Below are positions 1,207 to 57,441 of a stretch of DNA of 64,000 bases, piece by piece. A model generated the notes under the pieces. It searched no databases. It was not told the DNA's origin and saw only the letters and a list, made by a program, of their open reading frames with translations. Source of the DNA: Thermodesulfobacteriota bacterium (GTDB taxonomy: Bacteria; Desulfobacterota; Anaeroferrophillalia; Anaeroferrophillales; Tharpellaceae); NCBI GenBank assembly GCA_024763535.1, contig JANTFH010000005.1, positions 4,612-68,611 on the forward strand, in the 5' to 3' direction. The position numbers were made by a program, and so were the translations under genes. Each line of letters begins with the position of its first letter. Position 1 is the stretch's first letter.

Positions 1207-3252
1207 CTATTTTATCTCGCTAATTCTTCTGCTTGAAATAAGTTTGAGGCTGCGATTTTGGGCTGTCTCGGTATAGATTCTAAGATCTTTAGCCTGGCGG
1301 CTGATTGCCGCCATACGCTGTAGAACGGTTTCTCTTAAAGTATCATAGCCCGGGCGGTGCCTGATATATTCGACAGTATCCTGCAGATCCGGCAGGGCCT
1401 CAACACTTTGAAATCGTCTGTCTTGATTGATGATTGAGACCAGCAGATCACTTATTGTTTGGCGTAAATAACCGCTGTATCTGCGGCTGCGATGTACGAC
1501 CGTGGCCAAGGCACAGCTGCCGTCTACTTCCGTCTGGCGCAGCCGGTTTAAGATATGCAGAAGCGGGAGCCGGTTGCGGAGATCGGCTTCGGTAAAATCG
1601 TCCTGATCCAGAAAAAGTTTCTGCAACTCCTCCGCTTCTTCAGCAAAATCCGCCTGCAATTTATCTTCCGCCGGCAACCGGCCTTCAATCAGTTCTGCAA
1701 TGAAGCGGTTGATGATGGTGGTTGCGGTTTCCTGATTTCGATTAAGAAACTCAGCCAGGGCCGTACTGAAATTTGGGAGATCATCGCCTTTGCTGAGGCG
1801 CTCTTTGATGGTCAGCTCGCGGCTGTTTTCATAGCTTGCCAGCCGGGAGAGCAGGATTTTAAACTCTTTAGCGGTAAAGTACGGTTTAAGCCGGTTGAGC
1901 AGTTTGAATGAAAAACACCAGTCAACATCGTCCAGCAGGTCAATCAGGGTTCTGCGGACTGCATAGCGGTCGGCAAAACGGGTCAGAAAGAGGGCCACCT
2001 GCTGCTGGTGATGGTGGAGCAGCGGGGCCCTGTAAGTTCGTATGATACTCTCCCACTCTTTTCCGTAACCAAAGATTGACAAAGCTTCAAGCAGTTCAGG
2101 GTAGAGCTCTTCCTGATCGTGCCACCGGCTCAGCCGGTTGGCGTTGGCCTGATCCGGTTCAGCCCGTGGATGGCGGGCCAGTAGAGACAGCAGGAGGCGG
2201 CGTTCGGGGCTGGTTTCAGTTGTCATGAGATCATCGAAGAGCACTTTCAACGCTTGAGGATGACAATTTGTAGACAGTGCGGCCCAGGCCAGATGCCGTT
2301 CATGGCGATCGCCTCTGCTAGCTCTTTTCTGCAGTAGTTCTACGGCCTCAGGGGTGGGGATGAAAGCAATTCCGGGGATTGCCGCCAGCCGGTGTTTACG
2401 GCGCCAGGAATTACCGGCTGCAAGTAGTTCCGTCTGCTGTTTCGTATCACCCATCCGGGCGCTAAGGGTACATAAAATGTAGTTGTTATCGGTAAATTTA
2501 TTTAGCCGATCCCGGCATTTTGTCAGTTTTAGCCGGCCGATTGCGGCGGCGATGGATGGCTCCAGTGTTACTTTTCGGGTGAGTAGCTCCAGAGTTCTGA
2601 TATTGCATTGTTCGGCCTCCTCAGAACTTAAAGGCGGCCTGATGAAGACTATGAGTTCGGGCACTTGTTTTAAGAGGGCGAAATTGTCGGCAAAGATCAA
2701 GTCGTTTAAACGCTGTTCAGGCCAGGTTTCATGCAGAAGCCGCAGGCTGGTTGAACGCAGTTCCGGATCGACAATACCGATTATCAGACGGAGAGCTTTT
2801 TCCGGCGAAAAGAGCCTGATGGCAAGGGTCGCGGCAATCGCCGTGGTTCTTTCAACTCCGTGGGCAGCTCCGGTAAGTGAGTGAAAGTAGTCAAAAAAAC
2901 TGCATCCTCCTTCACCGTGAATGATTTTGCGTTTTATCGACTTCAGTTCCGGGTAGAATTCACGGCTGTCATCAATTTCAAAATGGTTAAAGAGACGAAA
3001 AATTGAGCTGTTGCCGCCGAGAAAGTAGGCCGCAGTCATTATAAGTTCCAGGTTCCGGTCGTGAGGGCCGTTAAGGGTCGCGTGGAGTTTTTTTTCAAGT
3101 TGTGAGAACTGCCGGTGTTCTTTTGAAGCGGGAGTATGATGACGGAGACTGAGCTGTATCCTATAAAATAACTCAAGCACCTGCCAGCGCAGTTCCCAGT
3201 TTTCGGTCAGGAGATCACTTATAATTTCTGGTCCGGGAATGAGTATCTTCAT
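1207..3252 (-). CDS. Hypothetical alpha-helical repeat protein (HEAT/PBS-lyase-like repeats possible), 681 aa
   Basis: Long ORF with consistent codon usage and a Leu/Ala-rich repetitive helical composition. No catalytic motif recognised. Confidence 0.55.
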   Translation of the reverse strand: MKILIPGPEIISDLLTENWELRWQVLELFYRIQLSLRHHTPASKEHRQFSQLEKKLHATLNGPHDRNLELIMTAAYFLGGNSSIFRLFNHFEIDDSREFYPELKSIKRKIIHGEGGCSFFDYFHSLTGAAHGVERTTAIAATLAIRLFSPEKALRLIIGIVDPELRSTSLRLLHETWPEQRLNDLIFADNFALLKQVPELIVFIRPPLSSEEAEQCNIRTLELLTRKVTLEPSIAAAIGRLKLTKCRDRLNKFTDNNYILCTLSARMGDTKQQTELLAAGNSWRRKHRLAAIPGIAFIPTPEAVELLQKRASRGDRHERHLAWAALSTNCHPQALKVLFDDLMTTETSPERRLLLSLLARHPRAEPDQANANRLSRWHDQEELYPELLEALSIFGYGKEWESIIRTYRAPLLHHHQQQVALFLTRFADRYAVRRTLIDLLDDVDWCFSFKLLNRLKPYFTAKEFKILLSRLASYENSRELTIKERLSKGDDLPNFSTALAEFLNRNQETATTIINRFIAELIEGRLPAEDKLQADFAEEAEELQKLFLDQDDFTEADLRNRLPLLHILNRLRQTEVDGSCALATVVHRSRRYSGYLRQTISDLLVSIINQDRRFQSVEALPDLQDTVEYIRHRPGYDTLRETVLQRMAAISRQAKDLRIYTETAQNRSLKLISSRRISEIK

Positions 3253-3293
3253 AAAGTATTGAAAAGTAAGAGTTTATTGTGGGTGCTAATTGC

Positions 3294-3322
3294 TTGACAT
3301 GGTTTACTTATGCTTGTATGTA
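3294..3322 (+). promoter_or_regulatory. Candidate sigma70 promoter (TTGACA, 17-nt spacer, TATGTA) upstream of the cytochrome gene at 3509
   Basis: TTGACA at 3294-3299 and TATGTA at 3317-3322, separated by exactly 17 nt. Confidence 0.35.
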
Positions 3323-3508
3323 GAGTTGTAAAGGTTGATTTTTATTTCTGGCCATCCTTTAAGGATAACCACGGGAAAAGTCAATCTTTGAATTGAGATA
3401 ATCGTCCCTGTCCGGGAGCGGGTTCTGTCGGCAAGCCCCCTTTGCCCTACTGGATCGATCCGTTGCCTGGGGTCAACAATGTCTGATTTTGAAAAACTGG
3501 AGATATTA

Positions 3509-4975
3509 ATGAAAAAAGTGATCACAGGAGTAATCTTTTTAATCTTTTTCAGCAGTGGATTATTGCTGGCCTGGTTCCCCGAAATAGCGTTGTCCGCGGT
3601 TTCCGGCAAATCCTTTTCAATCATCTACTCCTCGGATGAGAGAGGGGCGATCGCCCCGTGCGGCTGACATAAAAATCCGCGTGGCGGTCTGGCCAAGCGT
3701 GCGACTTATCTTGAAGAAATCGGTAAGAGTAAAACCCCTTATCTGGTGCTTAATGGAGGGAACCTGTTATTCAATCGGGAGTCTCTGAAGCCGGAAAAGG
3801 TCATTGCCGGCAAATTGCTGGCGGATCTGATCGTCTCCTCCTACAACAAGATGGGCTGTGATGCTTTGAACATCGGTGCCTACGACCTCTCTTTAGGGGT
3901 AGATTTTCTCCGGAAAAAAGAGAAGGCTGCCAAATTTCCCTTTCTCTCCGCAAATATAATGGATAAACACGGGAAACCGGTCTTTACTCCCTCTATAGTT
4001 AAAAAGATTAACGGAGTCAAAGTCGGTATTTTCGGAATCTGCAGCGACAAGCTGAAACTCAACAAGATACCCGGCGGCAATAAACTTAAGATTGCCAATG
4101 CTCTGGCCAAAGCTGAAGAGACAGCGCTACAGCTGCAACAGCAGGGGGCGGATTATATTATTCTTCTGACTACGCTCAATATCCGCCAGTGCCGCCGTCT
4201 GGGGCAGCGTGATATGCCGATTGATTTGATTGTCGGCAGCAGTAAGAGAAATCGTATATCCTTGCCAATTCTGGTTGATGATACCTATATAGTTCATGTT
4301 GAAAGAGGGGGCAAAAGTGTCGGTCGTCTCGATGTCAGCTTCCTCGGGCCGGCCGGAGTTCAGGCTTTGTCTCCGGCTGTTCGCTATAAGGGTAAAGCTG
4401 TTGGCGACAACCTGTTTTTATTGAATCATTTCCATCCGCTCAAGCTTGATATCCCGGATCATCCGGAGATTGCACCGATGGTAAAGAAGGTTGAGATCAG
4501 TCTGAGTCGTCTGCGGCAGGTAAAAGCGACGCAATCAATGACTATCGCCGGTGGTGGGGAAAAGGTGAAAATGGCCCCCGGCAATAGTTATGTATTTGCT
4601 GAAGCCTGTAATAAGTGTCACTCTCTACAGTTTCAACGCTGGCAGAAGACGGCGCATGCGAAAGCCTACACTTCCCTGATCAAGAACGATAAACATTTTG
4701 ATGAGGAGTGTATCTCCTGTCACGCTTTAGGTTACTCTCAGGCCGGAGGCTTTACGGATCTTCATCAGGTCGGTGAATTTGCCAATGTTCAATGCGAGTC
4801 CTGTCATGGTCCCGGCCGTCTGCATGTCAAATCCGAGGGTAAAACCAAGCTCAACCGGGATTTAGCTAACGGGAAGATGTGCCTTAAGTGTCATATCGAG
4901 GAGCGTAGCCCTGATTTTGACCTGGAAACCTATTTTCATAATGTCTGCGGGGCCGCTGCTATGCCGAAAAAATAG
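3509..4975 (+). CDS. Exported protein with a degenerate metallophosphoesterase (5'-nucleotidase/SoxB-like) domain and a C-terminal tetraheme c domain (4 CxxCH). It contains an in-frame TGA at 3665-3667 and is a putative selenoprotein (motif ...APCG-U-HK...).
   Basis: ORFs 3479..3667 and 3746..4975 share a frame and no other stop lies between them. The N-terminal piece carries the signal peptide (MKKVITGVIFLIFFSSGLLLAWF) and the C-terminal piece carries the heme motifs (CNKCH, CISCH, CESCH, CLKCH), which need export. The metallophosphatase ligand motifs are substituted (DxH to DE, GD to GN, GNHE to GAYD). A GGAG ribosome-binding site precedes ATG 3509. Confidence 0.5.
3678..3699 (+). ncRNA. 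SECIS-like hairpin 13 nt downstream of the in-frame UGA at 3665
   Basis: Stem cgcgtggc/gccaagcg (7 of 8 base pairs) with loop ggtctg, G-containing, at +21..+26 from the UGA. Confidence 0.4.
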
Positions 4976-5050
4976 TTCATGGATACCTGTATGTAAGCTG
5001 ATGTTGGTTTTCCGAAGGTTAACTTATGGGGTAACGGTGCTGATCTGTTT

Positions 5051-5584
5051 TTATGGTTGCGGCGGTAGACTTTTTTCGTTTTTGAGCAGGTCATTTTTGA
5101 GTTTGTCGAAGTCATCCCGGCTGATGAGACCGCGGTCGTAGAGGTCTGAGAGACGCAGGAGCTCGTTGCTGGGTGACGAGTTTAGTGGCGGGTATTCCGG
5201 AAGCGCATTGAGGGGGGTTATCTGGTTTTCGAGCATCACCTGCGGTTGTTGGTCCCGGTTCTGGCTTTTGATCGAGATTGAGGCCAGGCCGCCGAGCAGG
5301 CTTACCTCAATATTCTGTCCCGGAAACGGAGGGTTATGCAGGGTGTTTAATATCTGCTTGCCGTTCTGTTTCAGCAGGTAGTAGAAAAAAGCCCCGGAGG
5401 CAATTATCAGGATAACTCCGCCCCCCAGGATATACTCTATATATTCTGAAAGAGCCTGAATAAAGACCACCGCTGTTGCCAGAATAATAACCAGCAAAAG
5501 ATGAATCAGGAGGATCAGATATCCTGCCATTACTCCGCTTAAAAGCGGATTTTTTTTGCCTTCGCTTATCTTGTCTTCATTCAT
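5051..5584 (-). CDS. Membrane protein with a C-terminal SHOCT domain
   Basis: Two transmembrane helices followed by the C-terminal sequence LRLSDLYDRGLISRDDFDKLKNDLL, typical of SHOCT. Confidence 0.6.
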   Translation of the reverse strand: MNEDKISEGKKNPLLSGVMAGYLILLIHLLLVIILATAVVFIQALSEYIEYILGGGVILIIASGAFFYYLLKQNGKQILNTLHNPPFPGQNIEVSLLGGLASISIKSQNRDQQPQVMLENQITPLNALPEYPPLNSSPSNELLRLSDLYDRGLISRDDFDKLKNDLLKNEKSLPPQP

Positions 5585-5820
5585 TGATTAATTCGGGCCA
5601 TCTATCCGTTTATGAGTATAAAGTTCTCATGGCAACTCTAAAGAACCTGTTCCGGATACTACTTTTTTATGATTTAATCAATGAATTACTGTCGCACTTA
5701 TTCTTTCCCGTTTTGAAAAAGCTACCCCAGTCAAAGTATTTTTTCGTGGTTGTTCCGCTTAAACCGGAATAAAAGCCTGGTAACGGGATAACGGGCATAG
5801 ATCCATCTGCGTTCAAAATA

Positions 5821-5886: not shown

Positions 5887-8100
5887 TTAATATTTGTACT
5901 CTTTGTCTCCCAGAGTTTTAATCGTACTGTGTCTCTGGAGTTGAGCCCTGGCCCGATCAAGCAGATCCGTGACCTTTTTAGTCAGTTCCTTGGCAAACTC
6001 AAGGTTGTGAATCGGGTTTCCGTCCAGAAGTTTAAGGTTCTTCTCGGCGTTGTTGAGCAGATCCTGAGCCTCATACGTGTAATCTCCATTCTGGATGGCC
6101 AGCAGGACCGATCGCTGAGTTTGCTCAAGCTGTTCTTTAAGGCTGTCGATATTCAGGGCTTTAACCTCCTGACGCCACTCATCAACCATCTTGCCGTAGG
6201 CGGAGTCGTCATCGTGACACTCGATGCAGGCCTGTTTGAGGGCGGCATCGGTCATATCCTTCTCTTCGCTTACTTCAACATGGCAGTCGATACAGTTGAC
6301 CTCGGCCGCCATTGAACTGGGAGTTCCTTTGATGTCGCAACTTATTTCGTTGCAGGCATTCTGCCCGTGGATAAGATTGTAGGTGGCACTGTGACAATCT
6401 GCACACTCAACGGCACCGTTGCCGGAACCGTGGTGACAGTCTTTACAGTTTTTCAGGATCGTCCGGCCATGATGATCGCGGGAGCTGTGACAGTCGAGGC
6501 AGGCAAGGCCTTCGTCGACGACATGGACGTCATGCGGGAACTGAACATCACCGAAAGGTACGGGTTTGGTTTCAATACACTCAACACAGCTATGGCAGAG
6601 TTCGGTACAGCCGGTGGGTGAGGTAACCGCCTTAGCTTTGTAGGATGAATCGGCAATAGCTTTTGCTTTTTCACAACGTTCGCGACTGTCTGCGAGCAGA
6701 TTCAAAGCGTAATCGATGTTGTGGATTCCGTGGCTGTTCTTGACAAAGAGATAATTTTTCTGAGCTACCTCATAGAGTTTTGAGCCTTCTGGTGATTTTG
6801 TTTCGGTTAAAATCTGGTTGGTTTCGCGTAGGGTATTCGAGGTCTCGGCCAGCTCTTTTTTCAGAACCTCTTTCCAGTGCTTGGCCATATCGTCGTAACC
6901 GGCACCATGACACTCGGCACAGGATTTGATTAACTCATCAAAACCGGTACGTTTGAGTTTCCGGGTTTCACCATCGACATCATATACGGTCAGGTGACAG
7001 CTGGCACAGTCGAGGTGAGCCTTGTACATGCCGCTCGGCATCTCTTTAACATCCAGTCCGCCAACTCCGGCATACATGCTATGGACATTCTGGTGTTGAT
7101 CAAAGGTATGGCACTTGGCACAGTTGTGGTCATAGTGAAGCCCACTGTTGATTACCGCCGTTTTTATGATTCTCTGACGCTCCAGATACTTCGTCGATTT
7201 TTCGCGCGCGATATAGTGGTTGATATTGGCGTGGCAACGGAAACACTCAACCTTATGGGCAGTAACATGGTTGAAATGCATCTTTTCGCTGCTGTAACTG
7301 CCTTCCAGCAGATGAGGTTCGGAGTGACACTGGACGCAGACATTATCCATGACGTGGCCGTCACCGTAAATGATGCCGAAGTGACACTGCTCACAGTTAA
7401 CCCCGCGTTCGATGTAATCCTTGTGGACAAAAGGCTGATCCACATCCGCATCAACATATATCTTGGTTCGGTTTGAAGTATGGCAGGTCTGGCAGTCGGA
7501 AATCTCAAGATGGTTCTCTTTGTCGTAGAAGTGACACATGAAACAGGTGGTTTCCGTGACGGTGAGATGCTCACCCTGAACGATCTGGGAGTGGCAGCTG
7601 ACGCATTTCAGCTTTTTGCCGCGGCGCAGGTTGTCTAGATGGGTTTCATGGCTGAATTCGACCCCTTTGAAATTTACGGTGTTCTCTTTTAATTCGGTCA
7701 TCCCGTGACACCCATCTCGCAGACAGCTGGAATCGCTGATCTCGGTATGCGGCCGGGGGGGAGCCGTGCCGGTAATTTTCATAACTACATGTGTCTGAGC
7801 TTTCCATTTACCTTTGAGTTCGCCCCAGACGCCGGGCTCGAAATGACACTCAAGGCAACTGACTTCTTTATGGGAAGACTGTTTCCATGATTCGATATAG
7901 GAGTCCATGTTATGACACATACCACAGAATTTGTAGCTGGCGGTGGCCTTAAGGAGCAGGACGATCATTAGGATAAAGATACAGAAAGAAACAGCAAAGA
8001 ACACCAGCAGTCCTTTCCAGTGTTCGCGGGTACCGCGAGCCGCTTCGTGGCTGAAGTCACGGATAAAATCAATTAATAAATTCCACATTCTTCGAATCAT
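5887..8100 (-). CDS. Membrane-anchored multiheme c-type cytochrome, 737 aa. It has a NapC/NirT/NrfH-type N-terminus and about 15 canonical CxxCH sites plus 2-3 variant CxnCH sites.
   Basis: N-terminal cytoplasmic stretch and a transmembrane helix, then KFCGMCHNM...SCLECHFEPG (NrfH-like), followed by many CxxCH motifs and a C-terminal coiled-coil. AAGGAG ribosome-binding site 9 nt upstream. Confidence 0.85.
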   Translation of the reverse strand: MIRRMWNLLIDFIRDFSHEAARGTREHWKGLLVFFAVSFCIFILMIVLLLKATASYKFCGMCHNMDSYIESWKQSSHKEVSCLECHFEPGVWGELKGKWKAQTHVVMKITGTAPPRPHTEISDSSCLRDGCHGMTELKENTVNFKGVEFSHETHLDNLRRGKKLKCVSCHSQIVQGEHLTVTETTCFMCHFYDKENHLEISDCQTCHTSNRTKIYVDADVDQPFVHKDYIERGVNCEQCHFGIIYGDGHVMDNVCVQCHSEPHLLEGSYSSEKMHFNHVTAHKVECFRCHANINHYIAREKSTKYLERQRIIKTAVINSGLHYDHNCAKCHTFDQHQNVHSMYAGVGGLDVKEMPSGMYKAHLDCASCHLTVYDVDGETRKLKRTGFDELIKSCAECHGAGYDDMAKHWKEVLKKELAETSNTLRETNQILTETKSPEGSKLYEVAQKNYLFVKNSHGIHNIDYALNLLADSRERCEKAKAIADSSYKAKAVTSPTGCTELCHSCVECIETKPVPFGDVQFPHDVHVVDEGLACLDCHSSRDHHGRTILKNCKDCHHGSGNGAVECADCHSATYNLIHGQNACNEISCDIKGTPSSMAAEVNCIDCHVEVSEEKDMTDAALKQACIECHDDDSAYGKMVDEWRQEVKALNIDSLKEQLEQTQRSVLLAIQNGDYTYEAQDLLNNAEKNLKLLDGNPIHNLEFAKELTKKVTDLLDRARAQLQRHSTIKTLGDKEYKY

Positions 8101-11405: not shown

Positions 11406-11493
11406 TTAGGGAAAGTGTAAATTTTTTAAGTTAGTTCGTAAGTTAGTTTGAGTTGCGGAGTCTGTTTTCGCATTAGTGAATGGGAGTCGGTTG

Positions 11494-13446
11494 ATGGCTG
11501 AGATTTTATTTAGTTCCTGGGGTGGCGAGGTAGTTGATAACCGCCAAAAAGATGGCCAGGACTTTGAGCCGGTTAATACAGTTGATTTACCGGAATATTT
11601 CAGACAGGATGAAGCGGTTAAGGCTCTTATGGGCTGGTACGGCATCGTTATTCGTGACCCGGAAACCGATATCGTCGATTTGAGTCGGGTCTATATCCAG
11701 GAAGTTCAGAATAAATCCTGTGGTAAATGTTTTCTCTGTCGGATCGGCACCCGGGTTATGGCTGAGACTCTGACACGAATCTGTAATGGACAGGGCAAAT
11801 CTGAAGATCTTGAAATCTTAAAACGCCTGGCTGATTCAATTCGTGAATCCTCGAAATGTAATATCGGCCAATCCGGGCCCTTGCCGATTCTCGACGCTTT
11901 AGAGCATTTCGCCGCTGATTTCGAAGCTGCAATCAGCGCACAAAAGAGTGTTGCTGCCGGTACCTACCACTCAAAACTGACCGCACCCTGTATGGATGCC
12001 TGCCCGATCCATTTAGATATTCCCAATTATGTAGAGTGTATAAAAGAGGGACGTTTTGCCGAATCGCTTGATATTATTCGGGAAAAACTGCCGTTGCCGG
12101 GAGTTGTCGGCCGCGTCTGTGTGCGCCCCTGCGAAGAGCACTGCCGGCGTATGAATCTTGATGCTCCGATTTCGATCAAATTTCTCAAGCGTTTTGTTGC
12201 CGATTATGAACTGAGCAAAGGCAAAGAGCCTGAATTTGCAATTGAACCTTCAGAAAAAACCGGGAAGGTTGCGATTGTCGGCGCCGGCCCCAGCGGTGCA
12301 ACCTGTGCTTTCCATCTTGCAAAGATGGGCCATGATGTTACCGTTTATGAGCGTTTCGATGAACCCGGCGGCATGTCGGCCATGGGGATTCCTGATTATC
12401 GCCTGCCGCGCCCTATTCTTAGAGAAGAGGTTGACCGCATTGAGCGTATGGGGGCGACCTTTAATTACGAAACCACGGTCGGTAAAGATATTAAACTCTC
12501 CCAGCTTGAAGCCGATAACGATGCCGTGTTTATCGCTATCGGGGCCCAGATGGGTACGACGATGGGGGTTGAAGGTGAAGAAGAGAACTATGCCGGTTAT
12601 ATCTCCGGGGTGCAGTACCTGTTGGATATCAACCAGGGTCGGGATCCTTATCCTGAAGGTAAAAAAGTAGCAGTCATCGGCGGCGGCAACGTGGCGATCG
12701 ACTGTGTGCGCTGCTCCTTCCGGGTGGGCAAGGACGATGTCAATCTTATCTATCGCCGGACCAAAAATGAAATGCCGGCTGATGATGTTGAAATCCATGA
12801 CGCGGAAGAGGAAAAAGTCAATTTTCACTATCTTACGCATCCGGTTAAAATTCTGGCGGAAAACGGTAAAGTTGTTGGTCTGCGCTGTGTTAAAATGGAG
12901 TTAGGCGAGCCCGACGAGAGTGGTCGCCGGCGGCCGCAGCCGATTGAAGGTTCGGAATTTGTTATAGAGTGCGACATTGTGGTCCCGGCGATTGGCCAGA
13001 CGATGGATTTGTCTCTGCTTGAAGGACGTGAAGACGTTAAAACCACCCGCTGGAAAACGATTGTCGTTGACGAAGTAACTAAACAGAGCGACCAGCCGAA
13101 AATCTTCTCCGGCGGTGACTGTGAAACCGGTCCCGGGGCTTTGATTACTGCTTGTGCCGGAGGGCGGACGGCCGCTTTTAATATCGATAAGCTGATCAAT
13201 GGTGAACCGCTGGATTATACCGAAGATGACTATTTTGATAAATTTTTCAGTAAGGTTAAGGTCTTTGACCCGGCTGAAGATATTGGATTCTTAGGCGGTC
13301 GCGAGCGGAAAGAGCTGGAGATGCTTGATCCCGACACCCGCAAATTCACCAACGCTGAAGTGGAACAGGGCTTTTCGATTAACGATGCCATGGCTGAGGC
13401 CGATCGCTGTCTGCGCTGTTATCGGGTGGCAACTGTAAGAGTATAA
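11494..13446 (+). CDS. Fusion iron-sulfur flavoprotein: NuoF C-terminal 4Fe-4S domain joined to a GltD/NfnB-like 2x[4Fe-4S] FAD/NAD(P)H oxidoreductase. It lacks the NuoF FMN/NADH-binding domain.
   Basis: N-terminus SCGKCFLCRIGT...SKCNIGQSGP matches the NuoF 51-kDa C-terminal cluster. It continues with CMDACP...GRVCVRPCEEHC, VAIVGAGPSGATCAF (FAD-binding) and KKVAVIGGGNVAIDC (NAD(P)H-binding), as in the glutamate synthase beta chain family. Confidence 0.8.
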   Translation: MAEILFSSWGGEVVDNRQKDGQDFEPVNTVDLPEYFRQDEAVKALMGWYGIVIRDPETDIVDLSRVYIQEVQNKSCGKCFLCRIGTRVMAETLTRICNGQGKSEDLEILKRLADSIRESSKCNIGQSGPLPILDALEHFAADFEAAISAQKSVAAGTYHSKLTAPCMDACPIHLDIPNYVECIKEGRFAESLDIIREKLPLPGVVGRVCVRPCEEHCRRMNLDAPISIKFLKRFVADYELSKGKEPEFAIEPSEKTGKVAIVGAGPSGATCAFHLAKMGHDVTVYERFDEPGGMSAMGIPDYRLPRPILREEVDRIERMGATFNYETTVGKDIKLSQLEADNDAVFIAIGAQMGTTMGVEGEEENYAGYISGVQYLLDINQGRDPYPEGKKVAVIGGGNVAIDCVRCSFRVGKDDVNLIYRRTKNEMPADDVEIHDAEEEKVNFHYLTHPVKILAENGKVVGLRCVKMELGEPDESGRRRPQPIEGSEFVIECDIVVPAIGQTMDLSLLEGREDVKTTRWKTIVVDEVTKQSDQPKIFSGGDCETGPGALITACAGGRTAAFNIDKLINGEPLDYTEDDYFDKFFSKVKVFDPAEDIGFLGGRERKELEMLDPDTRKFTNAEVEQGFSINDAMAEADRCLRCYRVATVRV

Positions 13447-13532: not shown

Positions 13533-16208
13533 ATGGTCACGTTGACGATTGACGGCAAAGAAGTCACCGTCCCCCAGGGAACGACCATCCTTGAGGCGGC
13601 CCGGAGTGTCGATATCAGAATTCCGACACTCTGTTACCACGATCGTTTGAACCCTATCGGTTCATGTCGGATGTGTGTAGTTGAGATCGAAGGTTATACG
13701 CACCCGATGGCAGCCTGTACAACTCCGGTTGATGATGGGATTGAGGTTGTAACTAAATCTGATCGTCTGACTAGGATTCGTCAGGATTCGTTGAAACTGA
13801 TTCTGGTTAATCATCCGCTTGACTGTCCGGTTTGTGATAAGGGCGGCGAGTGCCTGTTGCAGGATTTGACCTACGAATTCGGGATTGATCAGGTTGAGTA
13901 TAAAGCGGCAAAAGTCGAGCGTGAATCACAGTATGCGACTCCGCTGATTCGTTACTGGCCCGACCGCTGTATCATGTGCCTGCGCTGCGTTACCGCCTGT
14001 CAGGAGATTAAGGGAATCGGCGCCATCAGTATTCAGGGAGACGGTTACGGAGCCCAGGTAGTGGCCGTAGATGCCGAGAAGTGTCAATCCTGCGGTGAGT
14101 GTCTGCAGGTCTGTCCGACCGGGGCCCTGACTGAGGATTTGAGCCGTTATAAAGGTCGCACCTGGCTGGTTGACAGAGTGCCGACCACCTGTACCTACTG
14201 CGGTTGCGGTTGTCAGCTTGAACTTAATGTTCAAAATGACCGGGTTATCGCCGTAACCACCCGGGAGGGGGTTGGCGTTAATCATGGCAGTCTCTGTGTC
14301 AAGGGCCGTTTCGGTTACGAATTTATCAACAGTGATGAACGGTTGACCAAACCGCTGATCAAGAAAAACGGCAAATTTGAAGAGGCGAGCTGGGATGAAG
14401 CTCTGGACCTGGTAGCCAGTAAGTTCTCTGCGATCAAAGAGGAACACGGCCCCGGTGCCCTGGCCGGCTTGACCTCGGCCCGTTGTACCAATGAAGAGAA
14501 CTACCTTTTCCAAAAATTTATGCGCGCGGCGGTCGGGACCAATAATGTCGATCACTGCGCCAGGCTCTGACACTCCTCAACTGTGGCCGGACTGGCCGCA
14601 ACGTTTGGCAGTGGAGCAATGACCAACCCGATTGCCGATGTCCTGAAATCAGAGACCGTATTGGTAACCGGAACTAATACCACGGAAAATCATCCGATTT
14701 TCGCCAATTACCTGAAAGAGGCCGTGCTTAAACACGGCACCAAGATTCTGGTGATCGATCCGCGGCGCATCGATCTGGTCGATTACGCCGAGCTCTACCT
14801 CCAGCCGAAACCGGGTACCGATATTGCCTGGATTAACGGTTTGATGCATATTATCATCAAGGAGGGCTGGGCGGCCCAGGATTATATCGACGAACGTTGT
14901 GAAGGTTTCGATGAATTTAAAAGCAATCTCGAAAAATTCACACCTGAATATGTTTCTGGAATTACCGGTCTGACCGAAGATGAGCTCTATGCCGCGGCCA
15001 AACTCTATGGCCAGGCGGCTCCGGCCTCAATCCTTTACGCCATGGGTATCACCCAGCATACCAGCGGTACCGATAATGTTAAATCATTAGGTAACCTGGC
15101 GATGCTTTGTGGTAACATGGGAGTTGCCGGCGGCGGCGTCAATCCGCTGCGGGGCCAGAACAATGTGCAGGGTGCCTGCGATATGGGTGGTCTGCCGAAT
15201 GTCTACACCGGTTATCAGAAGGTCGATGTTGATGAAGTGCGGGAGAAATTCGCCAAGGCCTGGGGGCTTGCGGCGGAGGCTATGGATTCAGCACCCGGTC
15301 TGAAACTGACCGAAATGTTTCCGGCAGCGGCCGAGGGTAAAGTCAAGGCTCTCTATATTATGGGTGAGAACCCGCTGGTCAGTGATCCCGATTTAACTCA
15401 TATTGAACACTGTATCGAAGCCCTTGATTTCTTCGTTGTGCAGGATATCTTTCTAACCGAAACGGCTAAGAAAGCCGATGTCGTGCTGCCCGGAGTCTCC
15501 TTTGCTGAAAAAGATGGAACCTTCGTCAATTCCGAGCGGGTTGTACAGCGGGTTCGTAAAGCATTAACGATTCCCGGCGAAGCTCGTGAAGACAGTGCTA
15601 TTATTGCCGATATCTCAACCCGTATGGGATATGAGATGAAATATGAAAGTGCCGCCGATATCATGAAAGAGATCAACGCTGTGACCCCGAGTTACGGCGG
15701 CATCACTTATGAACGTTTGGAAAACGGCGGCCTGGCCTGGCCCTGCCCCGACAGTGAACATCCCGGGACACCAATTCTGCATGTTGATAAATTTGCCCGC
15801 GGTAAAGGTCTCTTTTTCGCGATAGATCATCAGCCGCCGGCTGAACTCTGCGATAATGAGTATCCGTTTGTACTGTCGACCGGCCGTGTTCTCTCTCATT
15901 TCCATACCGGAACCATGACCCGCAAGGGTTCCGGCCTGAATAAGGTTCATCCTGAAGTCAAGGCTGAGATCAACCCTGAAGATGCCGCGCGTCTGGGGAT
16001 TGAAGCGGATGATCGTCTTAAGATTACCTCCCGCCGGGGTTCGATCGAGGTTAAAGCCATGCTCAGTGACCGTCCGGCAGCCGGGGTGGTATTTGTACCC
16101 TTTCACTTTCATGAAGTTGCAGTTAACCGTCTGACCAACGCGGCTCTCGATCCGGTTGCCAAAATTCCGGAATATAAGGTCTGCGCGATTAAGGTTGAAA
16201 AGGCTTAG
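13533..16208 (+). CDS. fdhA: NuoG/FdhA-like molybdopterin oxidoreductase catalytic subunit (formate dehydrogenase alpha-like) with selenocysteine encoded by in-frame TGA at 14568-14570
   Basis: ORFs 13533..14570 and 14583..16208 are in the same frame. The translation reads 2Fe-2S (CYHD...CRMC), HxxxCxxC, CIMCLRCVTAC, CQSCGECLQVCP, CTYCGCGCQ, then [29 protein letters not shown], the textbook Sec/Cys active-site motif of FdhA/FdhF. Confidence 0.85.
14582..14600 (+). ncRNA. SECIS-like hairpin 11 nt downstream of the fdhA UGA
   Basis: 7-bp stem tgtggcc/ggccgca with loop ggacu at +21..+25. Confidence 0.55.
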
Positions 16209-45116: not shown

Positions 45117-46829
45117 TTAAAGTCGGTAGCTGTAGACCGGAAACCGGGAGCAGAGATCACGGACGGTTGCCCGAGTTTCTGTAATTACCGAGTTGTCTTC
45201 CGGGTGCTTTAAGACACTGGAAATACAATCGGCGACGATCTCCATCTCCGCCTCCCGCATGCCCCGGGTTGAGGCGATCGGGGTGCCGATGCGAATGCCG
45301 CTGGGGTCGGTCGGGGTTCGGGGGTCAAAAGGGATGCCGTTTTTATTGATTGTAATGCCGGCTCGATCCAGGGCGGCTTCGGCACTCTGGCCCTTGACCG
45401 GAAGATCACTCAAATCTATCAGAAATAGATGATTGTCCGTACCCCCGGAGACGATGCGAAAACCTTTTTTCTGCAGGCATGAGGCCAGAAATGCGGCATT
45501 GGTCACGGTCTGTTTCTGGGTGGCGATGAATTCCGGAGTCGTAGCCTCCTTAAAAGCTACCGCTTTACCGGCAATCGTGTGCATCAGGGGGCCGCCCTGG
45601 AGACCGGGAAAGATAGCTTTGTCAATGCGGGCGGCGTATTGCTTGCGGCATAAAATCATGCCCCCACGGGGCCCGCGCATGGTTTTATGAGTGGTCGTAG
45701 TAACAAAATCCGCATAGGGCACCGGGGAGGGGTGGGCTCCGGCCACCACCAGCCCGGCGATGTGGGCAATGTCTACCATGACCATGGCTCCGATTTTGTC
45801 GGCAATGGCCCGGAAGCGGGGAAAGTCCAGAGTTCTGGAGTAGGAGCTGGCCCCGGCGACGATCAGTTTCGGTTTTTCCCGCAGAGCAATTTCTTCAATT
45901 ACATCATAATCTAAGGTTTCACTCTTTTGGTCAACTCCATAGTAGCATGACTGATAATGTGTTCCGGAAAAACTTACGAAGGCGCCATGGGTCAGGTGGC
46001 CGCCGTGAGCCAGATTCATTCCCAGGATTTTATCTCCCGGATTAAGAACGCTGAAATAGACGGCCATATTGGCACTTGAACCGGAGAGCGGCTGGACGTT
46101 GGCATGTTCAGCCCCGAAAAGAGCACAGGCACGATCTATCGCCAGCTGCTCCACCTGATCAACAAACTGGCAGCCGCCGTAGTAGCGTTTCCCCGGATAA
46201 CCTTCAGCGTATTTATTGGTCAGCGCGCTGCCCTGAGCTTCGAGTACTGCCTGACTGACACAGTTTTCGGAAGCAATCATAATCAGCTTGCTCTCTTCCC
46301 GTTCAGTCTCCTGCCGGATGAGCCGGCTGATTTCAGGGTCAACCCGGTCAATCGGGGCGCTGACGTCCCTGGTGGAGTTGAGATTGCGGTTTTCGATCTT
46401 CTCCAGCCGGCGTTGATGGCGGCCGTTCTCGTATTCAGAATCGAGCCAGATCTGCACCAGTTCCAAGGCCTCGGCCGGTTCCAGCACACGTCCGCCGAGA
46501 ACGATAATGTTGGCGTTATTGTGCTCTTTCGCCATTCGCGCCGTAAATTGGTCGTGGACCAGAGCCGCCCGGATATTCCGGTGGCGGTTCGCGGTAATCG
46601 ACATGCCGATACCGGTGCCGCAGATCAAGATTCCTGAAGCCTCAGGGAGGCCTGCAACCTGGCCGGCCAGCAGATGAGCAAAATCAGGATAATCGACCGA
46701 GTCTTCGGAGTTGGTACCCAGATCTTTAAGCTGGATTCTTCCCTTGAGATTCTCTTTGATGTATTCTTTGAGTGCGAAACCACCATGGTCGCTGGCGATA
46801 AACAGGGTTTTGGGGTTGTTGTCAGGCAT
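45117..46829 (-). CDS. glyA: Fusion protein: ribose-5-phosphate isomerase B (N-terminus) joined to serine hydroxymethyltransferase (C-terminus)
   Basis: The N-terminal ~150 aa have the RpiB motifs ([36 protein letters not shown]). A short linker follows, then GlyA ([11 protein letters not shown]...[20 protein letters not shown]...[16 protein letters not shown]...THKT). One uninterrupted frame. Confidence 0.85.
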
Positions 46830-56430: not shown

Positions 56431-57441
56431 ATGAAAATGAAGAAAAATTGGCTTTTGCTGGGTGCAGGGTTGCTGATGGTGCTGGCGATGACCATCACGG
56501 CCTGTACGACTTTGAGTGATCAAAGAGCCAGCGTTCTCAAGTTGCCGGTTCCCGTTCAGGGGGCTCAGTTTGCCGGGAGTGAGGCTTGTGCCGACTGCCA
56601 CGAAGAACTGGTGGCAACTTTCAGCGGCTCGATTCATGATCGGATCCTGGCCAAAGAGACAGCGATCGGCATGAAAGGCTGTGAGACCTGCCATGGTCCC
56701 GCCAGCCTGCATATGGATTCTGAGGATCCGGAACAGATTATCGCTTTTGAAAATCTGGATGCCGGAACTTCATCCGCGGTCTGTCTGCGTTGTCATAGTG
56801 ACGGTGAACATTTCGACTGGGCCGGTACCTCGCATCCGATGAATGATGTCGGTTGCTTGAGCTGTCATAAAATCCATAATCCACCGGTGGCGAAAAATTC
56901 GCTGGAAAAGGCCGAGCCGGAACTCTGTTATGAGTGTCATGCGCTGGAGCGGGCGAAGATGTACTATCCTTCGCATCATCCGGTTAAAGAGGGCAAGATG
57001 GTCTGCAGTGACTGTCACGCCAATCACGGTTCAATGGTTAATAACCTGAAAACCGATGAACGTCTTAACGATCTCTGTTTAAATTGTCATGCCCGTTATC
57101 AGGGCCCGTTCGTTTTCGAACATTCACCGGTTTCCGATGATTGTATGATCTGTCACGATCCGCACGGTACGGTTTCTAATAATCTCAAAAAAGCGAATGA
57201 ACCTTACCTCTGCCTGCAGTGTCACGAGCCGCATTTCCACGCCGGCCGGACTTCAACCCCGACGGGTGTAATGAAGGATCCGTATGGTAATTTGGTTCCA
57301 GAGAAAGATTATAACAGCGGTAATAAAAATGTTTGGGCTCAGGCTTACGCTACCAAATGTACTCAGTGTCATGCCCAGATTCACGGCAGCGATCTGCCCT
57401 CCCAGACGGTTCCCGGACAGGGCGGGGGTTTAACCAGATAA
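56431..57441 (+). CDS. Periplasmic decaheme c-type cytochrome (MtrA/PioA/MtoA-like size and heme count)
   Basis: Signal peptide with a possible lipobox (ITAC) and 10 CxxCH motifs in 336 aa. A beta-barrel gene follows 15 nt downstream. Confidence 0.85.
   Translation: MKMKKNWLLLGAGLLMVLAMTITACTTLSDQRASVLKLPVPVQGAQFAGSEACADCHEELVATFSGSIHDRILAKETAIGMKGCETCHGPASLHMDSEDPEQIIAFENLDAGTSSAVCLRCHSDGEHFDWAGTSHPMNDVGCLSCHKIHNPPVAKNSLEKAEPELCYECHALERAKMYYPSHHPVKEGKMVCSDCHANHGSMVNNLKTDERLNDLCLNCHARYQGPFVFEHSPVSDDCMICHDPHGTVSNNLKKANEPYLCLQCHEPHFHAGRTSTPTGVMKDPYGNLVPEKDYNSGNKNVWAQAYATKCTQCHAQIHGSDLPSQTVPGQGGGLTR

What the first reader, a model, noticed from the sequence alone, without database searches (positions are those of the whole stretch)
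3509..4975. Exported tetraheme cytochrome fused to a catalytically degenerate metallophosphoesterase domain, interrupted by an in-frame TGA (CG-U motif): candidate novel selenoprotein
The signal peptide is only on the upstream piece and the four CxxCH motifs only on the downstream piece. Both are in one frame, separated by a single TGA (3665-3667), with an 8-bp SECIS-like hairpin 13 nt later. The 5'-nucleotidase/SoxB-like domain has lost its metal ligands (DxH to DE, GD to GN, GNHE to GAYD), and the TGA lies right after the first degenerate motif, giving SSDERGAIAPCG-U-HK. This suggests a redox-active Cys-x-Sec centre has replaced the dimetal site, next to c-hemes. That would be a periplasmic selenoprotein family of unknown function, possibly in chalcogen or sulfur redox chemistry. 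It sits beside a giant NapC/NirT-anchored multiheme cytochrome.
Basis: partly seen in the sequence, partly recalled or inferred. Interest (0 to 1): 0.7.

Follow-up and report, generated by a model that had tools for sequence, protein, structure and literature searches.

The report
Known UshA-like tetraheme selenoprotein (PCGU family)
The interrupted gene is a real selenocysteine-containing, exported four-heme protein, but it belongs to a selenoprotein family that is already catalogued (NCBIfam NF041198, "UshA-like PCGU") and whose function is still untested.

Summary
ORF 3509-4975 has one in-frame TGA (3665-3667). A signal peptide lies upstream of it. Downstream lie a 5'-nucleotidase-like domain without metal ligands and four CxxCH motifs.

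The selenoprotein reading is strongly supported:
- In 82 related loci, 58 family genes carry TGA and 31 carry TGC/TGT at this codon of an invariant C-G-[U/C] motif.
- Cys-type homologs are single ORFs with the same architecture.
- Sec-type genes have a downstream hairpin that Cys-type genes lack (p~1e-7). Its loop is GGUCU, and its stem shows compensatory changes.
- TGA is an ordinary stop elsewhere in the window.
- Two other selenoprotein genes (FdhA-like, GSU2204-like) lie in the same window.

The novelty claim fails. The protein scores 368 bits against the 275-bit cutoff of NCBIfam NF041198, "UshA-like (seleno)protein PCGU". Selenoproteome papers have listed a "UshA-like, CxU" family since 2008.

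Function is untested. My inference (about 0.3) is that the Cys-Gly-Sec loop caps the one heme that lacks a conserved distal ligand. That would make a chalcogen (polysulfide/selenite-type) reductase like the unrelated MccSep. In this clade a conserved adjacent 16-heme NapC/NirT cytochrome would supply electrons.

The parts
3499..3502 (+). Shine-Dalgarno-like GGAG, 6 nt upstream of the ATG
   Evidence: Read directly from the sequence.
3509..4975 (+). Complete selenoprotein gene: 488 aa, with Sec at codon 53 and stop TAG at 4973-4975
   Evidence: Translation. NCBIfam NF041198 scores 368.4 bits against a cutoff of 275.
3509..3598 (+). Sec-type signal peptide, residues 1-30, with predicted cleavage at ALSA|VS
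   Evidence: By inspection. Homologs have a signal peptide or a lipoprotein box at the same place.
3659..3667 (+). Invariant C51-G52-U53 motif (TGC GGC TGA); the TGA at 3665-3667 is the Sec codon
   Evidence: C-G-[C/U] is present in 87 of 87 aligned family members. The U position is TGA in 58 genes and TGC/TGT in 31.
3678..3699 (+). SECIS hairpin: CGC.UGGC-GGUCUG-GCCA.GCG; the apical loop (3686-3691) starts at the 19th nt after the UGA
   Evidence: Fold. Covariation on 17 sequences gives 80.9% of cells paired against at most 42% in slid controls, and 0 of 500 shuffles reach the score. Sec-type versus Cys-type hairpin test, p=7e-8.
3611..4363 (+). UshA/5'-nucleotidase-like N-terminal metallophosphoesterase-fold domain with all metal-ligand motifs lost (about residues 35-285)
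   Evidence: Family profile against PDB 5'-nucleotidases, E=1e-32. Window protein against 3gve/1ush/2z1a. Foldseek of the homolog model against 3ive/1ush/CD73, E~1e-22. No Pfam Metallophos or 5_nucleotid_C hit.
4586..4972 (+). Cytochrome c554-type tetraheme domain. CxxCH motifs at 4607-4621, 4709-4723, 4793-4807 and 4880-4894. Candidate distal ligands are H383, H439 and C480 (4946-4948).
   Evidence: Pfam PF13435, 57.8 bits. Match to c554 (1bvb), E=1.5e-10. Invariant columns.
5887..8100 (-). Membrane-anchored 16-heme NapC/NirT-family cytochrome (737 aa); clade-specific linked partner and candidate electron donor
   Evidence: Pfam PF03264 plus multiheme families. 16 CxxCH motifs and an N-terminal TM segment. 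Orthologs are adjacent in all 6 clade loci, in 3 different arrangements. Contigs are shared between the two homolog lists.

Best explanation
Identity (shown, about 0.95). 3509-4975 is one gene for an exported protein of about 52 kDa. UGA-53 is decoded as selenocysteine with the help of a SECIS hairpin just downstream. The protein is an orthodox member of the catalogued 'UshA-like (seleno)protein, PCGU' family (NCBIfam NF041198).

Architecture (shown). A signal peptide is followed by a UshA/5'-nucleotidase-fold domain that has lost every metal ligand. That domain carries an invariant Cys51-Gly-Sec53 loop just after the position of the former first metal motif. A linker helix follows, and then a cytochrome c554-type tetraheme module stands where UshA has its nucleotide-binding domain.

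Mechanism (inferred, about 0.3). Only three distal-ligand columns are conserved for four hemes. The second heme (C401xxCH405) aligns with the penta-coordinated heme of the c554/MccA/OTR module, which is the catalytic heme in MccA and OTR. I propose that the C-G-U loop sits over this heme. Cys51 would ligate or cap the iron, and Sec53 would act as the nucleophile. Together they would form a heme-Cys-Sec centre that reductively cleaves S-S or Se-O type bonds (polysulfide, selenite or similar). This would be convergent with the unrelated selenoenzyme MccSep.

Electron supply (inferred). In this Deferrisomatales/Thermodesulfobacteriota-like clade, electrons would come from the quinol pool through the conserved adjacent 16-heme NapC/NirT cytochrome.
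For: Identity:
- NF041198 scores 368.4 bits against a cutoff of 275.
- All 17 full-length homologs have C-G-C aligned to C-G-U and the same architecture.
- In 82 loci from many phyla, the site is TGA in 58 genes and TGC/TGT in 31.
- All 69 close homologs were called as N-terminally truncated proteins of about 400 aa, as expected for unrecognised Sec genes.

SECIS:
- The contiguous downstream stem has a median of 7 bp in Sec-type genes against 5 bp in Cys-type genes, p=7e-8. Stems of at least 6 bp occur in 48 of 58 against 9 of 31, p=7e-7.
- Compensatory changes occur at pairs 16-33 and 18-31, and the GGCGGUCU stretch is invariant.
- The in-window FdhA-like Sec gene (HCARL-U-H) has a similar hairpin, GUGGCC-GGACU-GGCCGC. 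Its loop also starts at the 19th nt after the UGA.

Genetic code and Sec use:
- TGA is a normal stop in 4 of 27 confident genes.
- A third selenoprotein gene, GSU2204-family, lies in the window.

Fold:
-.

Mechanism:
- Invariant residues.
- The c554 alignment.
- PMC9250108 states that the penta-coordinated heme of c554, MccA and OTR lies in the N-terminal module these proteins share, at 'position 4', and that catalysis in this group of multiheme cytochromes takes place at a penta-coordinated heme.
- In MccSep, a His/Cys-ligated heme plus a Sec on a loop from a non-heme domain reduces polysulfide and selenite (PMC13510729).

Partner:
-.
Against: Identity:
- No Sec machinery (selA/B/C/D) is visible in the 64 kb. 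No tRNA was found, and not every ORF was scanned.
- Rfam has no matching family.
- The window's own hairpin is short and bulged, and is not significant in isolation.

Mechanism:
- No coordinates were available, so the distance from the C-G-U loop to any heme is unmeasured.
- The loop region has only about 60 pLDDT in the homolog model.
- AlphaFold models no hemes.
- The heme ligand assignment rests on conservation and on homology to c554.
- Outside this clade the family has only housekeeping neighbours. The 16-heme partner is therefore not a family-wide feature, and a general stress or maintenance role is equally possible.
- No member of the family has been characterised experimentally in the literature I could search.
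Confidence: 0.85

Rival explanations
1. The TGA is a true stop. The locus would be a pseudogene or two separate genes: a signal-peptide stub and an independent cytochrome.
For: Gene callers treat it this way throughout the databases, giving truncated homologs of about 400 aa. The ORF list splits the locus into 3479-3667 and 3746-4975.
Against: The same codon is TGA in 58 family genes across many phyla and Cys in 31. Protein conservation (GGLAKR) runs straight across the TGA. The downstream piece has no signal peptide, yet c-type heme attachment needs export. The SECIS is conserved and shows covariation. Cys-type homologs are single ORFs.
Confidence: 0.03
2. A sequencing or assembly error turned a TGC/TGT Cys codon into TGA.
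For: TGA differs from either Cys codon by a single base.
Against: Independent assemblies of close relatives (L001, L081, L082, L002) all have TGA here, and three of them share the same 27-nt SECIS stretch while flanking synonymous sites differ. All 69 close homologs in the protein database are truncated at this point.
Confidence: 0.02
3. It is a real selenoprotein, but the C-G-U motif is not a heme-linked catalytic centre. It could instead be a redox-active selenenylsulfide 'shuttle' (like the CGC disulfide of Erv2-type thiol oxidases; this comparison is from my own knowledge). In that case the protein would be a periplasmic thiol/peroxide oxidoreductase or a redox sensor, and the hemes would only relay electrons.
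For: Across most of the family the neighbours are housekeeping genes: LptD, HU, Maf, DciA and RNase T. That pattern suits a general envelope-maintenance or stress role. C-x-U/C-x-C motifs are typical of thiol-type redox proteins, and the 2008 survey lists the family's motif simply as 'CxU'.
Against: One of the four hemes lacks a conserved distal ligand, and it aligns to the catalytic penta-coordinated heme of the c554/MccA/OTR module. In this clade the gene is linked to a respiratory-type 16-heme quinol-dehydrogenase-like cytochrome. MccSep shows that heme-Cys-Sec chemistry exists.
Confidence: 0.3
4. It is still a phosphoesterase or a SoxB-like hydrolase, with the hemes as an accessory.
For: Clear homology and shared fold with UshA/CD73/SoxB.
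Against: All five metal-ligand motifs are lost family-wide. Even the first Asp is not conserved. There is no 5_nucleotid_C or Metallophos Pfam hit. SoxB (TIGR04486) scores 48 against a cutoff of 550, and UshA scores 47 against 600.
Confidence: 0.02

Closest known systems
NCBIfam NF041198 'UshA_like_PCGU', UshA-like (seleno)protein. Listed as 'COG0737 UshA-like, CxU' in Zhang & Gladyshev 2008 (PMC2398784) and in the 2022 and 2026 selenoproteome reviews (PMC9312934, PMC13188914).
   Same: Scores above the curated equivalog cutoff (368 against 275). It has the eponymous P-C-G-U motif, the UshA-like N-domain and a comparable full length (488 aa against a 519-position model).
   Different: Nothing of substance; this is a member. 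In the papers I could search, the family appears only as a table entry. I found no description there of the tetraheme domain, the loss of metal ligands, the SECIS types or the 16-heme partner.
MccSep / ExtKL (GSU2937-2936; NCBIfam NF040886), a multiheme selenoenzyme that reduces polysulfide (PMC13510729, 2026)
   Same: Periplasmic multiheme c-type cytochrome with one Sec. The Sec sits on a Gly-containing loop (D-G-U-P against C-G-U-H) contributed by a non-heme domain. A conserved Cys is paired with the Sec. It occurs in Desulfobacterota-type sulfur/iron reducers, and its electron donor is unidentified.
   Different: Unrelated sequence: NF040886 scores 11 bits against a cutoff of 250. It has five hemes rather than four, and an Ig-like rather than a UshA-like non-heme domain. 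Its Cys and Sec are far apart in sequence. Cys ligation of heme and the activity are proven for MccSep and only hypothesised here.
Cytochrome c554 / MccA / OTR / OcwA heme module
   Same: The heme domain matches c554 (1bvb, E=1.5e-10) and OcwA (6i5b). CxxCH motifs 1-3 align to c554 hemes I-III, including the penta-coordinated heme II position.
   Different: Here the module is fused to a non-heme UshA-like domain. Whether heme 2 is open, Cys-ligated or Sec-ligated is unknown.
UshA / CD73 5'-nucleotidases and SoxB thiosulfohydrolase (calcineurin-like metallophosphoesterases)
   Same: Same N-domain fold plus linker helix: about 310 aligned positions, Foldseek E~1e-22.
   Different: All dimetal ligands are lost. 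The C-terminal substrate-binding domain is replaced by four hemes. Scores fall far below the family cutoffs.
NCBIfam NF049981 'UshA-like (seleno)protein family 2' (CxxU)
   Same: Another UshA-like selenoprotein family.
   Different: Scores only 38 bits against a cutoff of 140. It has a different motif (CxxU) and a model of only 262 positions, too short to include a heme domain.

Membership tests
NCBIfam NF041198 UshA-like (seleno)protein, PCGU | HMM score at or above the curated equivalog cutoff (275 bits) | tested here: met
   368.4 bits, E=5.4e-110, with U replaced by C in the query.
NCBIfam NF041198 UshA-like (seleno)protein, PCGU | P-C-G-[U/C] motif near the N-terminus of the mature protein | tested here: met
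   APCG-U-HK at residues 49-55. C-G-[C/U] is invariant in 87 of 87 members.
NCBIfam NF041198 UshA-like (seleno)protein, PCGU | UshA/5'-nucleotidase-like N-terminal domain | tested here: met
   PDB profile search, E=1e-32; window protein against PDB; Foldseek of the homolog model.
Bacterial selenoprotein gene (general criteria) | In-frame UGA with coding conservation on both sides, and Cys in homologs at the same column | tested here: met
   58 TGA and 31 TGC/TGT at the same column; alignment A1.
Bacterial selenoprotein gene (general criteria) | SECIS stem-loop immediately downstream of the UGA, with G in the apical loop | tested here: met
   Hairpin at 3678-3699 with loop GGUCUG starting at the 19th nt after the UGA. 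Covariation. Sec-type against Cys-type contrast. No Rfam model exists for it.
Bacterial selenoprotein gene (general criteria) | The organism has Sec machinery (selA, selB, selC, selD) | not testable with these tools
   None was seen in the 64-kb window. Indirect support comes from two other canonical selenoprotein genes in the window: FdhA-like HCARL-U-H and GSU2204-family.
Bacterial selenoprotein gene (general criteria) | Selenium physically incorporated at the UGA | not testable with these tools
   Needs 75Se labelling, ICP-MS or peptide mass spectrometry.
Catalytic calcineurin-like metallophosphoesterase / 5'-nucleotidase (UshA, CD73) | Metal-ligand motifs DxH, GD, GNH(E/D), H and GxH | tested here: not met
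   SDER, GGN, GAYD, TTLN and GSS occupy the aligned positions. No Pfam Metallophos hit.
Catalytic calcineurin-like metallophosphoesterase / 5'-nucleotidase (UshA, CD73) | C-terminal 5'-nucleotidase substrate-binding domain | tested here: not met
   No 5_nucleotid_C hit. The C-terminus is a c554-type tetraheme domain.
SoxB thiosulfohydrolase (TIGR04486) | HMM score at or above the cutoff (550 bits), and a dimanganese site | tested here: not met
   48.4 bits; the metal ligands are absent.
Cytochrome c554 family (Pfam PF13435) | Domain score above the gathering cutoff, and four CxxCH motifs | tested here: met
   57.8 bits against 20.8. Four CxxCH motifs in 86 of 87 members.
MccSep/ExtKL multiheme selenoprotein (NF040886) | HMM score at or above the cutoff (250 bits); five hemes; an Ig-like C-terminal domain carrying the Sec | tested here: not met
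   11.2 bits. This protein has four hemes, and its Sec lies in the N-terminal UshA-like domain. The relationship is a functional analogy only.
Heme-Cys-Sec catalytic centre (MccSep-type mechanism) | Cys ligating the active-site heme, with the Sec within about 4 Å of it | not testable with these tools
The only support is indirect: three conserved distal-ligand columns for four hemes.

The most novel reading that the evidence does not exclude
The PCGU family would be a second, independently evolved heme-Cys-Sec enzyme. A dead metallophosphoesterase scaffold lends its old active-site loop (Cys51-Gly-Sec53) as ligand and nucleophile to the penta-coordinated heme of a c554-type module. The result would be a periplasmic polysulfide/selenite-type chalcogen reductase. 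In Deferrisomatales-like bacteria, a dedicated 16-heme NapC/NirT cytochrome would connect it to the quinol pool. This would also be the first functional assignment for a selenoprotein family found in at least 468 of the species-representative genomes scanned.
Probability: 0.25. Interest if true: 0.65.

Novelty: already known. Interest (0 to 1): 0.3.

Why it matters
As a discovery claim it matters little. The annotation model NF041198 already names this protein, and selenoproteome surveys have listed the family since 2008.

It matters more as a lead. The family is widespread, with at least 468 of the species-representative genomes scanned, across many phyla. It is Sec-type at about two thirds of the sites sampled, and gene callers routinely truncate it, including a RefSeq Deferrisoma entry. 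I found no experimental work on any member.

An August 2026 paper showed that an unrelated multiheme selenoprotein (MccSep) is the polysulfide reductase of sulfur respiration and uses a heme-ligating Cys plus a Sec. The PCGU family has the ingredients for the same chemistry on a different scaffold. In this clade it also has an obvious candidate electron donor. That makes a concrete, testable hypothesis for periplasmic sulfur/selenium redox chemistry.

Tried and rejected
- Rfam, whole window at gathering threshold: no SECIS or other RNA family.
- Single-sequence folding of the hairpin: not better than shuffles. Only comparative analysis gave a signal.
- Exact-match look-up of a window protein to identify the source contig: not on record.
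I modelled the Cys-type homolog P0070 instead.
- Family-wide conserved neighbours: only housekeeping genes and clade-specific neighbours, with no universal partner.
- P0049 as a possible NapC/NirT-PCGU fusion: its sequence diverges right after the first CxxCH and looks chimeric or frameshifted, so I discarded it.
- Promoter and terminator scan of 3200-5700: counts no higher than shuffled sequence, so uninformative.
- General TGA reassignment (genetic code 4 or 25): rejected, because TGA ends 4 of 27 confident genes.
- Membership in SoxB, UshA, ExtKL/MccSep or UshA-like family 2: all far below their cutoffs.
- Haft & Tolstoy 2025 (PMC12013261): not held in the library.
Full report
OBSERVATION

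The + strand ORF starting at ATG 3509 (GGAG at 3499-3502) runs to TAG 4973-4975 with one in-frame TGA at 3665-3667, codon 53. Residues 1-30 look like a Sec-type signal peptide (MKK, a hydrophobic core, then ALSA|VS). The sequence around the TGA is SSDERGAIAPCG-U-HKNPRGGLAKR. Four CxxCH motifs (C367, C401, C429, C458) lie in the last 125 residues.

The first in-frame start codon after the TGA is GTG at 3746. A protein starting there would have no export signal, which a c-type cytochrome needs. A hairpin follows the TGA, with stems 3678-3680/3697-3699 and 3682-3685/3692-3695 and loop GGUCUG at 3686-3691. Taken alone it folds no better than shuffled sequence. So the description is accurate, but the hairpin needed outside evidence.

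WHAT IT IS

NCBIfam contains an equivalog model named after exactly this motif: NF041198, 'UshA_like_PCGU', UshA-like (seleno)protein. The protein, with U replaced by C, scores 368.4 bits against a curated cutoff of 275. Pfam sees only the Cytochrome_C554 domain and finds no Metallophos or 5'-nucleotidase C-terminal domain.

The family is in the literature. 'COG0737, UshA-like, CxU' appears in the 2008 Global Ocean Sampling selenoproteome paper (PMC2398784). It also appears in the 2022 and 2026 prokaryotic selenoproteome reviews, the latter citing NF041198 explicitly. In the papers I could search it is only a table entry, and I found no functional study.

INDEPENDENT TEST OF THE SEC READING

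A search of 5.8 billion proteins returned 241 homologs. All 69 close ones (38-88% identity) are annotated as proteins of about 370-420 aa covering only about 80% of the query. That is what gene callers produce when they stop at an unrecognised Sec codon. More distant homologs of about 450 aa cover 90-98%.

Aligned, all 17 full-length homologs place C-G-C exactly on C51-G52-U53. They share the signal or lipoprotein peptide, the UshA-like domain and four invariant CxxCH motifs.

A scan of one genome per species found at least 468 loci encoding relatives. They come from Acidobacteriota, Eisenbacteria, Krumholzibacteriota, Planctomycetota, Fibrobacteraceae, Desulfobulbales, Myxococcus and others. 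In the 80 loci kept, plus two fetched later and the window, the codon at this column is TGA in 58 family genes and TGC/TGT in 31.

TGA is an ordinary stop for 4 of 27 confidently identified genes in the window, so a reassigned genetic code is excluded. The window also carries two other textbook selenoprotein genes. One is an FdhA/NuoG-like gene with HCARL-U-HSS (TGA 14568-14570). The other is a GSU2204-family gene (TGA 59355-59357, frame continuing to 59780).

SECIS

Sec-type genes have a markedly better hairpin just downstream of the codon than Cys-type genes. The median contiguous stem is 7 bp against 5 bp (Mann-Whitney p=7e-8). Stems of at least 6 bp occur in 48 of 58 Sec-type genes against 9 of 31 Cys-type genes (Fisher p=7e-7). 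These tests are not corrected for phylogeny.

Two designs recur:
- Type A, which includes the window: YUUGGC-GGUCUK-GCCAGG.
- Type B: GACUSGCCC-GGA-GGGCSAGUY, placed about 9 nt further downstream.

In a gap-free 17-sequence type A alignment, 80.9% of cells pair, against at most 42% when the partner columns are slid. None of 500 shuffles reaches the covariation score. Pairs 16-33 (CG/GC/UA) and 18-31 (UA/GC) show compensatory changes. GGC-GGU-CU is invariant at the nucleotide level, even though many of these sequences come from different phyla and their proteins are only about 30-45% identical to the window protein.

In the window's own clade, the 27 nt CCGCGTGGCGGTCTGGCCAAGCGTGC are identical in the window, L001 and L081 while flanking synonymous sites differ. 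The FdhA-like gene in the same window has GUGGCC-GGACU-GGCCGC. In both genes the loop begins at the 19th nt after the UGA. The GGUCU loop resembles the E. coli fdhF SECIS loop; that comparison is from my own knowledge.

DOMAIN ANATOMY

A family profile hits solved 5'-nucleotidases (CD73, snake venom, UshA) at E=1e-32 and SoxB at 4e-20 for the N-domain. It hits OcwA (6i5b) and cytochrome c554 (1bvb) for the C-domain. The window protein alone gives the same picture.

The aligned motifs show that every metal ligand is gone across the family:
- NDVH becomes NDvl in the family consensus, SDER in the window.
- GD becomes GN.
- GNHE becomes GekD in the consensus, GAYD in the window.
- GH becomes sxLG in the consensus, TxLN in the window.
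- GGH becomes isak in the consensus, GSS in the window.

An AlphaFold2 model of the closest full-length Cys-type homolog has pLDDT 83.6 and pTM 0.83 (P0070). It superposes on UshA, c4898 and CD73 over about 310 positions including the long linker helix (Foldseek E~1e-22). The tetraheme module therefore stands where UshA has its nucleotide-binding domain. In UshA the active site lies between the two domains; that is established knowledge, not tested here.

CONSERVATION AND A MECHANISTIC INFERENCE

I rebuilt 87 family proteins by reading through the TGA. The only invariant N-domain residues are C51, G52, [C/U]53, G59 and the near-invariant G84 and N149. The heme domain keeps four CxxCH motifs (86 of 87 members) plus H383 and H439. 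A third column near the C-terminus is His in 58 members, often as the last residue (...KIKH), and Cys in 20. The window's C480 lies one column away. That gives three candidate distal ligands for four hemes.

CxxCH motifs 1-3 align to c554 hemes I-III. PMC9250108 states that c554, MccA and OTR carry their penta-coordinated heme in this N-terminal module ('position 4') and that catalysis in this group of multiheme cytochromes takes place at a penta-coordinated heme. The paper places the three hemes common to all these proteins at positions 3, 5 and 6, so I take position 4 to be the second heme of c554. The heme at C401xxCH405 is therefore the likely open or unusually ligated one.

An August 2026 paper describes MccSep (GSU2937/2936, ExtKL), an unrelated periplasmic pentaheme selenoenzyme (PMC13510729). 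In MccSep a Cys ligates the active-site heme. A Sec on a D-G-U-P loop from the non-heme domain attacks polysulfide or selenite, and both residues are essential. By analogy I propose that the C-G-U loop of the dead phosphoesterase domain caps heme 2, with Cys51 as ligand and Sec53 as nucleophile, to form a chalcogen-bond reductase. This is inference, at about 0.3. I could not measure the geometry, because coordinates were inaccessible, the loop has only about 60 pLDDT, and hemes are not modelled.

CONTEXT

The gene is monocistronic. The upstream gene (a HEAT-repeat protein, 1207-3252) lies on the opposite strand, pointing away. Downstream on the opposite strand, pointing toward it, are a small SHOCT-domain gene (5051-5584) and a 737-aa membrane-anchored NapC/NirT-family cytochrome with 16 CxxCH motifs (5887-8100). 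The nuo operon follows.

Orthologs of the 16-heme protein (46-84% identity) sit next to the PCGU gene in all six clade loci examined, in three different arrangements:
- Convergent: window, L001, L081 and L082.
- Divergent: L002.
- Co-directional with a gap of about 110 nt: L003.

Some locus tags are two genes apart, for example Kow0092_13720/13740 in a Deferrisomatales MAG. Linkage that survives rearrangement argues for a functional partnership in this Deferrisomatales/Thermodesulfobacteriota-like clade.

Across the rest of the family the neighbours are housekeeping genes such as LptD, HU, Maf, DciA and RNase T. The partner is therefore clade-specific. A general periplasmic redox or defence role remains a live rival, at about 0.3.

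VERDICT

The loss of metal ligands, the heme fusion and the relevance of the NapC/NirT neighbour are also right.

The claim of a novel selenoprotein family is wrong. This is an above-cutoff member of a family that is already curated and published. What remains open is the function. The heme-Cys-Sec hypothesis is new as far as I could find, and it is timely and testable, but it is unproven.

Noticed in passing
window 13533-16208 (+), TGA at 14568-14570; SECIS 14583-14599: An FdhA/NuoG-like molybdopterin selenoprotein (HCARL-U-HSST) sits inside the nuo operon in the NuoG position. Just before it is a NuoF-like/GltD-like fusion (11476-13446). This looks like an unusual formate-dehydrogenase-like, Sec-containing module in complex I.
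   Followed up: partly
window 56431-57441 and 57456-59780 (+), TGA at 59355-59357: A third selenoprotein gene: GSU2204-family CXXCH-containing (seleno)protein (NF041027, 503 bits). It reads through AYGG-U-AGSF for about 140 more residues and ends in LTFRF, a typical outer-membrane beta-barrel terminus. A 10-heme lipoprotein-like ORF, probably GSU2203-like, lies just upstream.
   Followed up: partly
L020, L024, L035, L040, L057 (Planctomycetota); L018 (Eisenbacteria); L003: Paralog pairs of the family sit in tandem. In the Planctomycetota loci and L018, one copy is Sec-type (PCG-U) and the other Cys-type (VCGC or PCGC). L003 has two Sec-type copies. This suggests sub-functionalisation or Se-dependent backup.
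   Followed up: no
Sec-type loci, first 50 nt after the TGA: One protein family uses two different SECIS designs at different offsets: type A with loop GGUCU at about +19, and type B with a GGA/GGC triloop at about +28. Both are built from the codons of the conserved GGLAR(R)A motif.
   Followed up: partly
L058:6130 (Ca. Electronema aureum, Cys-type) against L068:6046 (Ca. Desulfobulbus rimicarensis, Sec-type): The cable-bacterium Cys-type gene keeps the GGC GGT CTG SECIS loop sequence of its Sec-type relative, but the stem is degraded. It may be a fossil SECIS left by a recent Sec-to-Cys change.
   Followed up: no
Family alignment, C-terminal column near window residue 480 (nt 4946-4948): The C-terminal residue that probably ligates a heme is His in 58 of 87 members, often as the very last residue (...KIKH), and Cys in 20 (...V-x-C-P). 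The choice is independent of Sec/Cys status at position 53. If correct, part of the family, including this window's clade, would have a His/Cys-ligated heme.
   Followed up: partly
P0069 (RefSeq 'MULTISPECIES: multiheme c-type cytochrome [Deferrisoma]', 356 aa) and most hits: Public annotations of Sec-type members are N-terminally truncated, starting after the TGA and lacking the signal peptide. This includes a RefSeq entry from a cultured genus. The family is therefore systematically mis-called.
   Followed up: partly
L028:1633-2460 and 13 other loci: A protein of about 275 aa with no Pfam match lies immediately downstream of the family gene in 14 loci of one sub-clade. It may be a clade-specific partner.
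   Followed up: no
window 45117-46829 (-): A single 570-aa ORF combines ribose-5-phosphate isomerase B (residues 8-147) with serine hydroxymethyltransferase (164-566). This is an rpiB-glyA fusion or a missed internal start.
   Followed up: no
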